A stretch of 64,000 nt of DNA. Origin: the human T2T-CHM13v2.0 reference genome, Homo sapiens. The stretch lies in assembly GCF_009914755.1 (NCBI RefSeq), contig NC_060936.1. One strand, 5' to 3'. The translations under genes and the position numbers were made by a program. Shown piece after piece: positions 28,842 to 45,125 of the stretch; the stretch's first letter is position 1; each line of letters starts with the position of its first letter. A model generated the notes under the pieces. That model had not been told where the DNA came from. It worked only from the letters and a program-made list of their open reading frames with translations, and did not search any database.

Positions 28842-28973
28842 CTGCTGAACTGACGGGGTAGGCATTGGAGTTGCAAGCCCTGCATCTCCACCATCAATAT
28901 CAAAGAGGTCATTCGGACTAATTCCACTCTCACTCAAAGCAGCAAGCAGTAAATCTTGCCCTGGCTCCACCAT
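28842..28973 (-). CDS. SBNO1: SBNO1 exon 2 (start codon; [10 protein letters not shown]...PTPSVQQ), 132 nt
   Basis: ATG is the first base after the acceptor (tttaaag|ATG). Donor CAG|gtaaga. 44 codons matching the SBNO1 N-terminus. Confidence 0.95.
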
Positions 28974-41323: not shown

Positions 41324-43270
41324 TCATGCCTGTAATCCCACCACTTCGGGAAGCGGAGGCCAGAAGATTGCTTGAGGCCAGTAGCTGCCTCCCAACATGG
41401 TGAGACCCCCGCCTCTCAACAAAAAAATTAAAAAAAAAAAAATTAGCTGCTGTAGTGGTGCACATCTGTAGTCCCAGCTACTCCGGAGGCTGAAGTGGGA
41501 CGATCGCTTGAGCCCAGGAGTTCAAGCTGCAGTGAGCTATGACCACGTCACTGCACTTCAGCTTGAGCAACAGAGTGGGACCCTGTCTCAAAAATTTAAA
41601 AATAGCATAAATATTCCAAACGCAATTATATGGAATAAGTTGGAATGGAAGATAAAAAGCAGAAGCCAGAGAAAAAAAGTAAAGTCGTCTCCCATCGGAA
41701 AAATTTTGGAAACAACTTCTTTAAAAGATGAGAGAAAATGTTCCCTTGCTTGCAAAATTAATGTCCCACTCAAGTCACCAGTAGGAAATTCTGCTATCTT
41801 CTGTGCAACGATGATAGCTTTCCCTACGCTTATGAAAATCAATTCTGATTGCTAGAAAATATGGTGGAAAATAGAATCCCTCTGTACTGTCAGCTCGCAG
41901 AATTATCTGAAAGTGTTAAGTCAATTCCTGCTAGGGCACTCCGGATGACAGTTCTCTGCACCCTTCTGGATGACTCTTTAGAAACCATATTCCATCCCTA
42001 ATTCTGGCTGTCTAGAATATATGAAACATTTAACTCAACATAAAATGATAATAGCCAACTTTCAAAGGTCAAAGGGGACCAGTTTATAACCTTCCCTCAA
42101 CACGTGTTCAGTACAAACTTCCGGGTGCACTTACAATTGGCTGCGCAATTCAATGGATAAAAACGTTGCTTTATTTGTCTCTCATTTTCTGGCCCGTTCT
42201 TTTCCCACGTTTCTCAACCAGCGACTCCCCAAAACAAAAGCCTCCCACAGTAAACCGAGCACGCACATAAAAAGAGCTTCTCTGTGCGAGGATCAAGTTA
42301 GTGGTCCGCAAACATTAACCAAACAGAAGCACAAAGCAGGGGTGGGAAGGGGAGGAGCTGGATGCCAGGGTCAGGAAAGAAACAATCAGAAGGGTTTAGG
42401 AACATCCAAATCTCCTCAGCGGTTAAACCGACCCCAAACCACTTCTGGGAAACCACCGGTATCCACTGCTTTGGGGAACTCTGGATGCTCGTTATGCCAA
42501 ACGCTCTCAAAGTAAGCAAATCCCCAACTGCCGTTCCCCTCCATGGGTAATTCTTAGGGTCTGGGAGGTGAGCTCGCCCGCCGAGGCAGAACTAAGCGAG
42601 TCGCCTGGAGAGGCGTGAAGGGAGCCTGCACGTGTCCCCCGCGGCTTCCCCACCGCCCCAAGAGCGGGGCATGTACGAGACCGCGCTGTGGGGTTCAGAT
42701 TTAGGAAGGACGACCGCGTCGCCTGCCTCCCTCCCTCGCCCAGAGCCGGGAGCAATGCTGGGGCACGAAAGAGGACTTGGGAAGGATCCGGTCCTTACTT
42801 TCCCCGCGGGTCCCGGACCCGCAGCCCCCGGGTTGTGAGGCGGAAGCCAAAGGGGCGAACCCAGCGGAGCCGGCGTGCACAGACCCTGCCCCGCGGTCCA
42901 AGAGGGGTGCCTCCGGCCCGGGACAGCGGGGCTCCCGGAGCCCGAAAGCCCCACGAGCGGCGACAGCGGGGCCCGGCGCTGACGAACAGAGGAAGCGAGT
43001 ACAACGGCGCCGCCGTCGGGAACATGCCCCCGAGGGCCCCGGAGCGCGCGGCGGCGGGGGGCGGCAAGCGGCGAGGGAGGCCCCAAGCCGGGGCGAGGTG
43101 GCTGTCCCCCCAGCCTGGCCCCGCACGGCCCCCCGAGGAGGGTGGGAGTGGGAGGCTGTCCGGGAGGGGGAGTGTGGAAGGAGAAAAGGGCCAAGGGAAG
43201 GACTTACTTTCCCCGCGGGACCCGGCGCCAGGACAGCTCCTCCCGGGAGGTGTGAGTTTGAAGGACCAGA

Positions 43271-43350
43271 GGCGACTGGAGCGGAGGCGGCGGTGGCGGC
43301 GGCAGCAGCGGCGTCCTGCTCTGCCTACCTCCCCGCCGCCATCTTGACGC
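43271..43350 (-). ncRNA. MIR8072: MIR8072 hairpin overlapping SBNO1 exon 1
   Basis: Minus strand 43340-43321 reads GGCGGCGGGGAGGUAGGCAG, which I recall as mature miR-8072; it can pair with the downstream GCUGCCGCCGCC arm. Identification is from memory and it may not be a genuine miRNA. Confidence 0.6.
43325..43342 (-). other. uORF M-A-A-G-R-stop in a perfect TISU context (CAAGATGGCGGC)
   Basis: ATG GCG GCG GGG AGG TAG read directly; matches the TISU consensus SAASATGGCGGC. Confidence 0.7.
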
Positions 43351-45125
43351 CCCTCCCCCAGCCCCCCCGCCCCGCCGGGAGGGGCGGGGGAGGGGCAACG
43401 GATGAGGCGCCGCGCGCACGCAGCGCCCTCACGTGACTTCCTCCCTCCTCCCCCACCCGCCTCTCTGCGCCCCTCTCCGCCCCGCCTCCCTCCTAGGTGA
43501 AGGAAGATGATTTCCCCCCCATCTTGACCACCCCCCAGTCTTCGCCGCCAAAAACGGACTCCGCCGGCTATCCTCGGCCCGGTACCAGTTGTTGGATCCA
43601 AGAGAATTCCGGAACCCAAACGGTCCATTACCGCGGCTCTGGGGTGGGCGAGGGGTGAGGGGGCCGGGTTTCCGCGAAGGGGGAGGGGGAAGGCGAAGGC
43701 CACCTAGGAGAGTCACGTGACTACTGTTTCCGCAGGCGCTCACGGAGAGCTCGCGGTAATTCCGTTTCCCCGCCCTTTTTTCCCCGCGGCCTGTCGGGAA
43801 GAAGGTCCGCGTGCCAGGGCTATCGGGAGGTCGGCCGGAGGGCCGCGCGCATGCGCCCCGCGCCTGCTTTCAAACTCCGGCTAGGAAGGGCCTGGAGCTA
43901 TTTTCAGAACCTGTTAGGGTGGGGAGCTACGGCCCAGGAAGTTACCTAGCAGCGTTTCTGTCACTTGGAAGATCTCTTCATTACCTAGTTAGTCCTAGAA
44001 ACAAAATGTTTACATATTCATTGCTTGTTAGGCTCGCTCAAAGCACTTTATTGGCAGTGAAACCGCAAGTAACCCGGAGCCCTCGGCGCGACCACGGCTA
44101 GAATCAGAGCCTAAGGCGTGTGAGCTCGGCCATCCCACGTCTGTCTTCACGCTCATCCGCAAGCCCGACACACCGGGGCTCCCACTTAATGAATACTGAA
44201 GAGTAGGGCTGTCCCTACCGCTTCTCACTTCCTTGTTTTCATCTTTTCGTTATTATTAAGCGACCTAACACAATAAACATATTACCTTGTTGGTAACCCT
44301 TTTGTAAAGTCATTCTGAAAGTGCTGTTTGACTCCGTTGCTTGGGTAATAAGCACGCCTGGGTGATTCTTGCCCCCTACTGGCTGCGCATCCTACAAGCC
44401 TAGTGCTGAAAGCAAACCAAGTAGCTGGAACAGTTGGAGGTTACAGTGTGAACTCTTCCAGAGACAAAGTATTCGGGGAAAGAAAGGAAAAAGTAGGCAC
44501 AGAAAGAATAGGAAACTTCAGTGTTTGTACACATAGATATGTATTATATATCTATGTATACATTTATAAATATTTTTAAAGTGCTAACTAATCGCTTTAC
44601 TAATTACATTATTTCATTTAATCCTCTCACACACATAGAAAAAAAACCTATAAAGACAAAAATAAAAAATATTTTAGGCCGGGCGCAGTGGCTCACGCCT
44701 GTAATCCCAGCACTTCGGGAGGCCGAGGTGGGCGGACCACCTGAGGTCAGGAGTTCGAGACCAGCCTGGCCAACATGGTGAAACCCCATCTCTGCTAAAA
44801 ATACAAAATTTAGCTGGGGCTTGGTGGCGGGCACCTGTAATCCCAGCTACTCTGGAGGCTGAGGCAGGAGAATCGCTTGAACTCGAGACGGAGGTTGCAG
44901 TGAGCCGAGATCGTGCCATTGCACTGCAGCCTGGGCGACAGAGCGAGAATCCGACTCAAAAACAAAAAACAAAAAAAACCTTAGGCACAGGCCAGGTGTG
45001 GTGGCTCACGCCTGTAATCCCAACACTTTGGGAGGCTGAAACGGGGATCTCAGCCAGGAGTTTGAGACCAGACTTGGGTAACAAAGTGCAACCTCATCTC
45101 GACAAAAAAACATTTTTCTTTTTGA

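What the first reader, a model, noticed from the sequence alone, without database searches (positions are those of the whole stretch)
43208..43346. TISU-context ATG in SBNO1 exon 1 is in frame with the main ORF and blocked by a single TAG: uORF switch, readthrough N-terminal extension or vestigial coding exon
Seen: the minus strand has CAAGATGGCGGC at 43346-43335, a perfect TISU consensus (SAASATGGCGGC) that is also a YY1 site. From this ATG (43342) to the donor (43208) is exactly 135 nt, so it is in frame with the exon-2 ATG. It reads MAAGR*AEQDAAAAAATAASAPVASGPSNSHLPGGAVLAPGPAGK|MVEPGQ, with one stop (TAG, 43327-43325). The stop sits inside the GC-rich MIR8072 hairpin, and an in-frame CTG in good context (GTCCTGG, CTG at 43231-43229) lies 8 codons before the ATG. 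Known: TISU drives efficient cap-proximal initiation with little leaky scanning and usually marks the main start codon; downstream RNA structure can promote UAG readthrough. Inference: ribosomes may be captured by a 5-codon uORF so that SBNO1 needs reinitiation, or a 45-aa Ala-rich extended proteoform exists through readthrough or existed ancestrally. Caveat: the frame match is a 1-in-3 chance, and GC-rich DNA is stop-poor.
Basis: partly seen in the sequence, partly recalled or inferred. Interest (0 to 1): 0.8.

Follow-up and report, generated by a model that had tools for sequence, protein, structure and literature searches.

The report
Five-codon TISU upstream ORF in SBNO1
The start-like ATG at the very beginning of the SBNO1 messenger belongs to a common promoter and translation motif and opens only a five-codon upstream reading frame, an ordinary arrangement rather than a hidden longer protein.

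Summary
The sequence observation is correct in every coordinate. The minus strand carries CAAGATGGCGGC at 43346-43335, 12 nt from the annotated SBNO1 start. Its ATG is 135 nt from the donor and in frame with the exon-2 ATG, with one TAG after five codons.

The motif is real: 643 genomic copies against 4 for the reversed control. The frame match and the "single stop" carry no signal. The other two frames of exon 1 have no stop at all, and 51% of shuffles of this frame have none.

No evidence supports a coding extension:
- No protein in two very large libraries carries the peptide.
- 99 of the 120 best SBNO1 relatives start at MVEPGQ, and the extended models do not convincingly resemble the human peptide or each other.
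- GC3 is the lowest codon position.

UAG-GCAGAG matches no known readthrough context, and no structure follows the stop.

The original TISU paper already describes TISU ATGs that are followed by a stop and proposes that they inhibit the downstream start. Best reading: a YY1/TISU core-promoter element whose ATG opens a five-codon uORF, with reinitiation 117 nt downstream. Translation was not testable here. This is a new member of a known kind, of low interest.

The parts
43335..43346 (-). TISU / YY1-type 12-mer CAAGATGGCGGC, at +9..+20 of the annotated SBNO1 transcript
   Evidence: 12 of 12 match to SAASATGGCGGC; 643 genomic copies against 4 for the reversed control.
43325..43342 (-). Upstream ORF: ATG GCG GCG GGG AGG TAG (MAAGR*), five sense codons plus the stop
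43208..43324 (-). 117-nt stretch between the uORF stop and the exon-2 ATG after splicing. It gives 39 in-frame codons with no sign of coding.
   Evidence: stop statistics; GC by codon position 0.82/0.76/0.63; no protein match.
43229..43231 (-). In-frame CTG, with G at -3 and G at +4, eight codons before the exon end. A possible minor non-AUG start; untested.
43271..43350 (-). GC-rich hairpin annotated as MIR8072. The stem begins at the G of the uATG, and the TAG lies in the 5' arm.
   Evidence: -43.8 kcal/mol, z -2.13, 9 of 200 shuffles fold as well; no Rfam family reaches its gathering score.
43208..43354 (-). SBNO1 exon 1 (non-coding, 147 nt, 72% G+C), followed by the donor GTAAGT at 43207-43202
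   Evidence: Hub annotation.
28971..28973 (-). Main SBNO1 start codon, the first three bases of exon 2. After splicing its context is GAAAATGG, with A at -3 and G at +4.
   Evidence: 99 of 120 relatives start here.

Best explanation
The 12-mer is a TISU/YY1 core-promoter element of the CpG-island, TATA-less SBNO1 promoter, which it shares head to head with SBNO1-AS1. On transcripts that start at or near the annotated site, its AUG lies 12 nt from the cap and opens a five-codon uORF (MAAGR).

Inferred mechanism: some cap-recruited 40S subunits initiate there, translate five codons and terminate at UAG-G. Because the uORF is so short and 117 nt remain, they mostly resume scanning and reinitiate at the exon-2 AUG, which has a strong context. 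Other ribosomes reach the main AUG in two ways. Some bypass the uAUG, which is embedded at the foot of a stable hairpin. Others translate transcripts that start downstream of it.

The net effect would be a modest, constitutive dampening of SBNO1 translation. The in-frame relation to the main ORF and the single TAG are coincidences of GC-rich, stop-poor DNA. The 39 codons between are untranslated leader, not a protein extension.

Shown here: the sequence anatomy, the reality of the motif, chance-level frame statistics, and the absence of a coding or readthrough signature. Inferred, not shown: YY1 binding, TSS usage, uORF translation and reinitiation.
For: Sequence and annotation:
- 12 of 12 match to the TISU consensus, with the ATG at +13 of the annotated start (hub annotation). 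The leader of 12 nt equals the median reported for TISU genes.
- The motif is strongly over-represented in the genome: 643 copies against 4 for the control.
- The setting is CpG-island-like: GC 0.74 and CpG o/e 0.76.

The class is already in print (Elfakess and Dikstein 2008, passages read):
- The TISU ATG is the ORF start in 64% of 554 genes.
- In the rest it is out of frame or followed by a stop, and the authors propose that it inhibits the downstream AUG. WBP11 is their example.

My own sample of the genome's sites gives a similar picture. I examined 88 of the 643 sites, and 27 of them are island-like. In 10 of those 27 the motif's ATG meets a stop within 15 codons, and in 12 of 27 within 20.

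Against a coding reading of the 39 codons:
- Frames +1 and +2 have 0 stops and 51% of shuffles have none.
- GC3 is the lowest of the three codon positions, 0.63.
- There are 0 hits for the peptide in the word-indexed library of 5.8 billion proteins (147 candidates, none at E<=10).
- There are 0 hits at E<=0.001 among 1.84 billion representatives.
- 99 of the 120 best SBNO1 relatives start at MVEPGQ.

[quoted passage not shown] The penultimate codon here is AGG.
Against: There is no direct evidence that this uAUG is translated, that the main TSS lies upstream of it, or that YY1 binds here.

The uAUG is embedded at the base of a -43.8 kcal/mol hairpin that starts 5 nt from the cap. Elfakess 2011 found that a structure 6 nt downstream of a cap-proximal TISU AUG cut TISU translation by about 60%. 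Capture by this uORF may therefore be weak.

In my sample, 0 of the 27 island-like sites had an ORF as short as five codons, so SBNO1 lies at the short extreme.

The mouse, pika, alligator and turtle gene models show in-frame open sequence upstream of MVEPGQ. An open frame in exon 1 therefore recurs across species, although the sequences are not conserved.

Orthologous DNA could not be fetched, so conservation of the motif, the TAG and the frame was not tested at nucleotide level.
Confidence: 0.6

Rival explanations
1. Transcription-only element. The 12-mer works as a YY1-binding core-promoter element. Its ATG is rarely or never used by ribosomes, because TSSs are dispersed, some falling downstream of it, and because the AUG is cap-proximal and buried in a stable stem. 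SBNO1 is then translated by ordinary scanning, with no meaningful uORF effect.
For: Elfakess 2008 shows that TISU mutation lowers transcription from all TSSs, and that TSSs lie both upstream and downstream of TISU in PSMD8 and WBP11. The stem begins at the G of the AUG, -43.8 kcal/mol. Structure close to a cap-proximal TISU AUG reduces its use by about 60%. The setting is a CpG island, the kind of promoter that typically has broad TSS use (the link to broad TSSs is established knowledge, recalled).
Against: TISU was defined by its ability to capture ribosomes at leaders of about 12 nt with little leakage, and the annotated leader here is exactly 12 nt. The hairpin is only modestly more stable than shuffles of the same composition (z -2.13). 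The whole exon is not more stable than its shuffles (z -0.29).
Confidence: 0.3
2. Extended proteoform by UAG readthrough. Ribosomes starting at the TISU AUG read through the TAG and make SBNO1 with a 45-residue Ala-rich N-terminal extension.
For: The ATG is in frame with the main ORF, and only one stop intervenes.
Against: UAG followed by GCAGAG fits neither UGA-CUAG nor UAG-CARYYA, the contexts that support efficient readthrough. The hairpin includes the stop in its 5' arm, so it is already melted when the stop is in the A site (inference from the geometry). The 109 nt that begin 9 nt past the stop fold worse than 199 of 200 shuffles (z +2.59). No protein carries the peptide. GC3 is the lowest codon position. 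The frame has more stops than the other two frames.
Confidence: 0.02
3. Vestigial coding exon. SBNO1 once began at the TISU ATG, and the TAG is a later disabling change.
For: In 64% of TISU genes the motif's ATG is the main start. Two reptile gene models start with MAA.../MAG... and run open into MVEPGQ: Pelodiscus with 86 residues and Alligator with 41.
Against: 99 of the 120 best relatives, including monotreme, marsupial, bird and turtle entries, start at MVEPGQ. In 10 pairwise comparisons among the five tested extensions (bat, mouse, pika, alligator, turtle), 106 to 295 of 300 shuffles scored at least as well. Against the three human frames, the best of 15 tests were a 16-residue, 5-identity match (pika, 4 of 300 shuffles) and a Gly/Arg-rich 11-mer in a different frame (alligator, 6 of 300). 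Automated gene models take the longest open frame, so the extended models are a selected subset.
Confidence: 0.03
4. Minor non-AUG proteoform. Scanning or reinitiating ribosomes occasionally start at the in-frame CTG (43231) and add eight residues to SBNO1.
For: The CTG is in frame, has G at -3 and G at +4, and no stop follows it before the main ATG.
Against: No data support its use. It lies only 24 nt before a strong-context AUG. The peptide has no database match. Such in-frame near-cognate codons are common in GC-rich leaders (established knowledge, recalled).
Confidence: 0.08

Closest known systems
[quoted passage not shown]
   Same: A perfect consensus at about +10 to +20 of a TATA-less, GC-rich promoter. 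The ATG is followed by a stop before the main start. The authors already propose that such elements compete with, and inhibit, the downstream AUG.
   Different: SBNO1 is not named in that paper's main text as far as I read it, and its gene lists were not visible to me. Here the uORF has only five codons, and its AUG sits at the foot of a stable hairpin that is annotated as a miRNA precursor.
Canonical TISU genes such as PSMD8 and RPA39, where the motif's ATG starts the protein
   Same: The same motif, the same distance from the cap (median leader 12 nt; 12 nt here), and the same dual role in transcription through YY1 and in translation.
   Different: In SBNO1 the frame closes after five codons, and the conserved protein starts in exon 2.
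Short uORFs that permit reinitiation, including the DENR-MCTS1-dependent subclass (Bohlen 2020, PMC7494916, passages read)
   Same: A very short uORF with a strong start context, followed by a long (117 nt) stretch before the main AUG.
   Different: The penultimate codon is AGG, not the ATG, CTG or GCG that confer DENR dependence. No special factor dependence is predicted.
Mammalian programmed stop-codon readthrough, as in OPRL1, OPRK1, AQP4 and MAPK10 (Loughran 2014, PMC4132726, passages read)
   Same: An in-frame open stretch follows a stop codon.
   Different: Those cases have UGA-CUAG, conserved across vertebrates, and a conserved coding signature after the stop. Here the stop is UAG-GCAG, belongs to a uORF, has no downstream structure and shows no coding signature.

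Membership tests
TISU element | Sequence SAASATGGCGGC with an invariant ATG | tested here: met
   CAAGATGGCGGC at 43346-43335 (-), a 12 of 12 match.
TISU element | Located downstream of the TSS, up to about +30, giving a very short leader (median 12 nt) | tested here: inconclusive
   It lies at +9..+20, with a 12-nt leader, relative to the RefSeq exon start 43354 in the hub annotation. No CAGE or 5' RACE data were available to confirm TSS usage.
TISU element | TATA-less, GC-rich promoter setting | tested here: met
   GC 0.74 and CpG o/e 0.76 around the motif, and GC 0.71-0.78 across 42800-43500. No TATA-like run is visible in the 60 nt upstream of 43354. That TISU is enriched in TATA-less promoters is stated in the review read.
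TISU element | The motif's ATG is the start of the main ORF (true of 64% of TISU genes, so typical rather than strictly defining) | tested here: not met
   A stop follows five codons. 99 of 120 SBNO1 relatives begin at the exon-2 Met. This places SBNO1 in the 36% class described.
TISU element | YY1 binding and an effect on transcription | not testable with these tools
   It would need ChIP or EMSA and promoter mutagenesis.
Translated uORF | An upstream AUG with an in-frame stop before the main AUG | tested here: met
   ATG at 43342 and TAG at 43327-43325, with the main ATG 117 nt further along the spliced mRNA.
Translated uORF | Ribosome initiation at the uAUG | not testable with these tools
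   Four searches pairing SBNO1 with TISU, uORF, 'upstream open reading' or 'ribosome profiling' each found 0 papers. The one supplement text I could search held no SBNO1.
Programmed stop-codon readthrough | A leaky stop context (UGA-CUAG, or UAG-CARYYA) | tested here: not met
   The stop is UAG followed by GCAGAG. The motifs are as given.
Programmed stop-codon readthrough | A stimulatory RNA structure starting a few nucleotides 3' of the stop | tested here: not met
   The stop lies inside the 5' arm of the hairpin. The 109 nt from 9 nt past the stop have MFE -34.7 kcal/mol against a shuffle mean of -43.4, z +2.59.
Programmed stop-codon readthrough | A conserved protein-coding signature after the stop | tested here: inconclusive
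   There are no protein matches, GC3 is the lowest codon position, and the orthologue models do not convincingly resemble the peptide. No nucleotide alignment of mammals could be made.
Non-AUG N-terminal extension | An in-frame near-cognate codon in good context with no stop before the main AUG, together with evidence of its use | tested here: inconclusive
   The sequence criterion is met by the CTG at 43231. Its use is not testable here.

The most novel reading that the evidence does not exclude
A fraction of ribosomes that start at the cap-proximal TISU AUG read through the uORF's UAG and fuse the leader to the main ORF. This would give a primate-specific SBNO1 proteoform with a 45-residue Ala-rich N-terminus, that is, a uORF joined to the main ORF by readthrough.

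A less radical variant is that the TISU uORF makes SBNO1 output depend on reinitiation capacity. It would then respond to energy or eIF2 stress differently from ordinary scanning-dependent mRNAs. I put that variant at about 0.15.
Probability: 0.02. Interest if true: 0.65.

Novelty: new member of a known kind. Interest (0 to 1): 0.2.

Why it matters
If the uORF is translated, SBNO1 joins the roughly one third of TISU genes in which a very strong cap-proximal start codon sits ahead of the real one. SBNO1 is a Notch-pathway chromatin helicase. Its protein output would then depend on reinitiation and on where transcription starts, not on plain scanning. That is useful for interpreting 5'UTR variants and for reporter design, but it is an expected arrangement. 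The main practical value of this check is negative. The in-frame relation and the single stop should not be read as a hidden proteoform. Similar 'in frame, one stop' observations in GC-rich first exons should be discounted unless the frame has fewer stops than its two neighbours.

Tried and rejected
- Earlier findings of this scan were not open.
- Rfam: no family reaches its gathering score around the site. The best hit is mir-343 on the opposite strand, 26.3 bits against a threshold of 70.
- Retrocopies as fossils of the mRNA 5' end: exon 1 and exon 2 each match only their own locus in the window's genome, so this gave no TSS or ancestral-state information.
Conceptual N-termini of database gene models served as a weak proxy.
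- Peptide searches: the 39-residue query was below the size limit. The 45-codon reading with X at the stop found nothing among proteins of 80-2000 residues. The 39-residue peptide found nothing in the representative library.
- Literature: SBNO1 paired with TISU, uORF, 'upstream open reading' or 'ribosome profiling' gave 0 papers each. These searches cover main texts only.
- Supplements: the one file searched held no SBNO1. The next request was answered 'closed', so lists of TISU genes and translated uORFs were not seen and may name SBNO1.
- DENR-dependent reinitiation was considered and set aside, because the penultimate codon AGG is not among the dependent codons.
- The hairpin as a readthrough stimulator was rejected on geometry and on the fold of the downstream RNA.
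- Window-level motif significance was uninformative at up to 1 mismatch: 0.64 expected, and 49 of 100 shuffles have a match.
Full report
**1. The observation**

Read on the minus strand, the SBNO1 first exon starts at 43354 according to the hub's RefSeq annotation. It carries CAAGATGGCGGC at 43346-43335. The ATG is at 43342-43340, the codons that follow are GCG GCG GGG AGG, and TAG is at 43327-43325. The exon ends at 43208 and is followed by GTAAGT. Exon 2 begins exactly with the ATG at 28973.

The 135 nt from the ATG to the donor translate as MAAGR*AEQDAAAAAATAASAPVASGPSNSHLPGGAVLAPGPAGK. A script confirmed that:
- this is the only ATG in the 147-nt exon;
- the exon is 72% G+C;
- an in-frame CTG lies at 43231 in the context GCTGTCCTGG.

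**2. What exceeds chance and what does not**

The 12-mer itself is a real genomic signal. In the window's own genome it occurs 340 + 303 times, against 2 + 2 for the same letters read backwards. Within the 64-kb window alone, the consensus with up to one mismatch is expected 0.64 times by chance. The significance therefore comes from the genome-wide excess and from the position at +9..+20 of the annotated transcript, not from the window.

The frame argument carries no signal. The in-frame relation is a 1-in-3 event. The ATG frame is the only one of the three exon-1 frames that has a stop at all; frames +1 and +2 are fully open. Among 20,000 shuffles of the 132 nt after the ATG, 51% have no stop and 35% have one. 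"Blocked by a single TAG" is therefore slightly worse than the typical outcome for non-coding DNA of this composition.

**3. Is the 39-codon stretch coding?**

Several independent checks say no.

- G+C by codon position in the ATG frame is 0.82/0.76/0.63, so the third position is the lowest. From general knowledge, GC-rich human coding exons usually show the opposite. With 39 codons this is weak evidence.
- The 45-codon reading, with X at the stop, found no protein among 147 word-sharing candidates of 80-2000 residues in a library of 5.8 billion proteins.
- The 39-residue peptide found 0 proteins at E<=0.001 among 1.84 billion cluster representatives read in full by HMMER.
- The first library does hold vertebrate SBNO1. 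The exon-2 peptide retrieved 427 proteins at E<=0.001, of which the best 120 were listed. Of those 120, 99 begin exactly at MVEPGQ.

The other 21 listed proteins fall into four groups:
- One or three extra residues: 3 entries.
- Metagenome-derived fragments that read in from the intron: 11 entries.
- An Ensembl-type bird model with the same intron read-in: 1 entry.
- Six gene models with longer N-termini: a mouse 'partial' entry (20 residues), two pika isoforms (24), a bat (17), alligator (41, starting MAGH) and soft-shelled turtle (86, starting MAAD).

I then compared five of these extensions (one of the two pika isoforms) with the human frames and with each other.
- In all 10 pairs among the five extensions, 106 to 295 of 300 shuffles scored at least as well.
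- Against the three human frames, the best two of 15 comparisons were weak. One was an ungapped 16-residue match with 5 identities between pika and the human ATG frame (4 of 300 shuffles as good). The other was a Gly/Arg-rich 11-mer between alligator and a different human frame (6 of 300).

Exon 2 is 89% identical between human and pika. An extension of about 31% identity is not under protein-level constraint.

The MAA/MAG starts of the two reptile models are compatible with a conserved ATGGCGG-type element at the SBNO1 start. This is only a hint, and such models are a selected subset, because gene predictors take the longest open frame.

**4. Readthrough**

The stop is UAG followed by GCAGAG. 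Loughran et al. 2014 (PMC4132726, passages read) list the contexts that give efficient readthrough as UGA-CUAG and UAG-CARYYA. Neither is present.

The 80-nt stretch annotated as MIR8072 folds at -43.8 kcal/mol, with z -2.13 and 9 of 200 shuffles as stable. Its main stem runs from the G of the AUG onward, and the UAG lies in its 5' arm. A ribosome with UAG in its A site has already melted that arm, so the hairpin cannot act as a downstream stimulator. That last step is an inference from the geometry.

The 109 nt that begin 9 nt after the stop fold worse than shuffles: -34.7 against a mean of -43.4 kcal/mol, z +2.59, with 199 of 200 shuffles folding at least as well. No feature of known programmed readthrough is met.

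**5. What it is**

The element fits TISU as defined by Elfakess and Dikstein 2008 (PMC2518114, abstract and passages read):
- the invariant ATG in SAASATGGCGGC;
- a position downstream of the TSS, up to +30;
- a median leader of 12 nt, and the annotated leader here is exactly 12 nt;
- dual action on transcription, through YY1, and on translation.

That paper reports that the motif's ATG is the ORF start in 64% of 554 genes. [quoted passage not shown] WBP11 is their worked example.

I checked the base rate myself. Of the first 100 of the 643 genomic sites listed, I read 88. I dropped 12: six on contig 2 that sit in closely paired duplicates, and the last six listed on contig 3.

- 27 of the 88 lie in CpG-island-like DNA, defined as GC>=0.55 and CpG o/e>=0.6 over 312 nt.
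- Among those 27, the ORF opened by the motif's ATG closes within 10 codons in 4, within 15 in 10, within 20 in 12, and within 5 in none.
- SBNO1 (5 codons, GC 0.74, o/e 0.76) is thus at the short end of a common class.
- The other 61 sites lie in low-GC DNA with recurring downstream peptides. They look like interspersed repeat families rather than promoters.

**6. Likely mechanism (inferred)**

On transcripts that start at about 43354, the uAUG is 12 nt from the cap in the context TISU was defined by. Ribosomes that use it make MAAGR and terminate.

Bohlen et al. 2020 (PMC7494916, passages read) found uORFs "generally permissive for reinitiation". Dependence on DENR-MCTS1 was tied to penultimate ATG, CTG or GCG. 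The penultimate codon here is AGG, so I predict no special factor dependence.

After termination, 117 nt remain before the main AUG, which after splicing has A at -3 and G at +4. By the classical rules for reinitiation, which I recall and did not look up, a very short uORF and a long spacer favour efficient reinitiation. The expected effect is a modest dampening.

Two features should weaken capture further. First, the AUG sits at the foot of a stable stem. Elfakess et al. 2011 (PMC3177215, passages read) found that a structure 6 nt downstream of a cap-proximal TISU AUG reduced TISU translation by about 60%, and left open that eIF4A may be needed when the AUG is embedded in structure. Second, TISU promoters use several TSSs on both sides of the motif. 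A transcription-only role is therefore a serious rival, which I put at 0.3.

**7. What could not be done**

No CAGE, Ribo-seq, ChIP or mammalian alignment is reachable with these tools. Retrocopies that might have preserved the mRNA 5' end do not exist in this genome. Four literature searches pairing SBNO1 with TISU, uORF, 'upstream open reading' or 'ribosome profiling' each returned 0 papers. They cover main texts only. Published gene lists may therefore already name SBNO1.

**8. Verdict**

This is a new member of a known kind, the TISU ATG followed by a stop. Interest is low (0.2).

Noticed in passing
window 43271-43350 (-): The annotated MIR8072 precursor starts 5 nt from the annotated SBNO1 cap site, and its mature product (43340-43321) begins at the G of the uATG. 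The stem is simply GGC-repeat against GCC-repeat pairing (z -2.13), and no Rfam miRNA family reaches its threshold. It looks more like a promoter-proximal 5'UTR fragment than a classical miRNA gene. That is my inference; its biogenesis was not examined.
   Followed up: partly
G000 sites sampled as L001-L088: 61 of 88 sampled perfect 12-mers lie in low-GC, CpG-poor DNA, and the downstream translations recur. For example, MAASL(L/F)FSDL... is seen about 7 times, MAAPSSLL... about 9 times, and MAAVQSSLG... 4 times (these tallies are my own counts from the listing). A large share of genomic 'perfect TISU' sites therefore sits in interspersed repeat families, not in promoters. The families were not identified.
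   Followed up: partly
window 43429-43436: The palindromic E-box-like TCACGTGA, plus G-rich GC-box-like runs (43362-43375), lie between the SBNO1 start (43354, -) and the SBNO1-AS1 start (43455, +). This is a compact bidirectional CpG-island promoter about 100 bp wide.
   Followed up: no
proteins P0082 and P0092: The alligator and soft-shelled-turtle SBNO1 gene models begin MAGH... and MAAD..., with 41 and 86 residues upstream of MVEPGQ. This suggests that an ATGGCGG-type start-of-transcript element may be old at this gene, while the sequence behind it is not conserved. It could not be checked at DNA level.
   Followed up: partly
window 43208-43316 (-): The 3' two thirds of exon 1 fold markedly worse than shuffles of the same composition (z +2.59). 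It is a C-rich, G-poor stretch that may stay unstructured once the 5' hairpin is opened.
   Followed up: no
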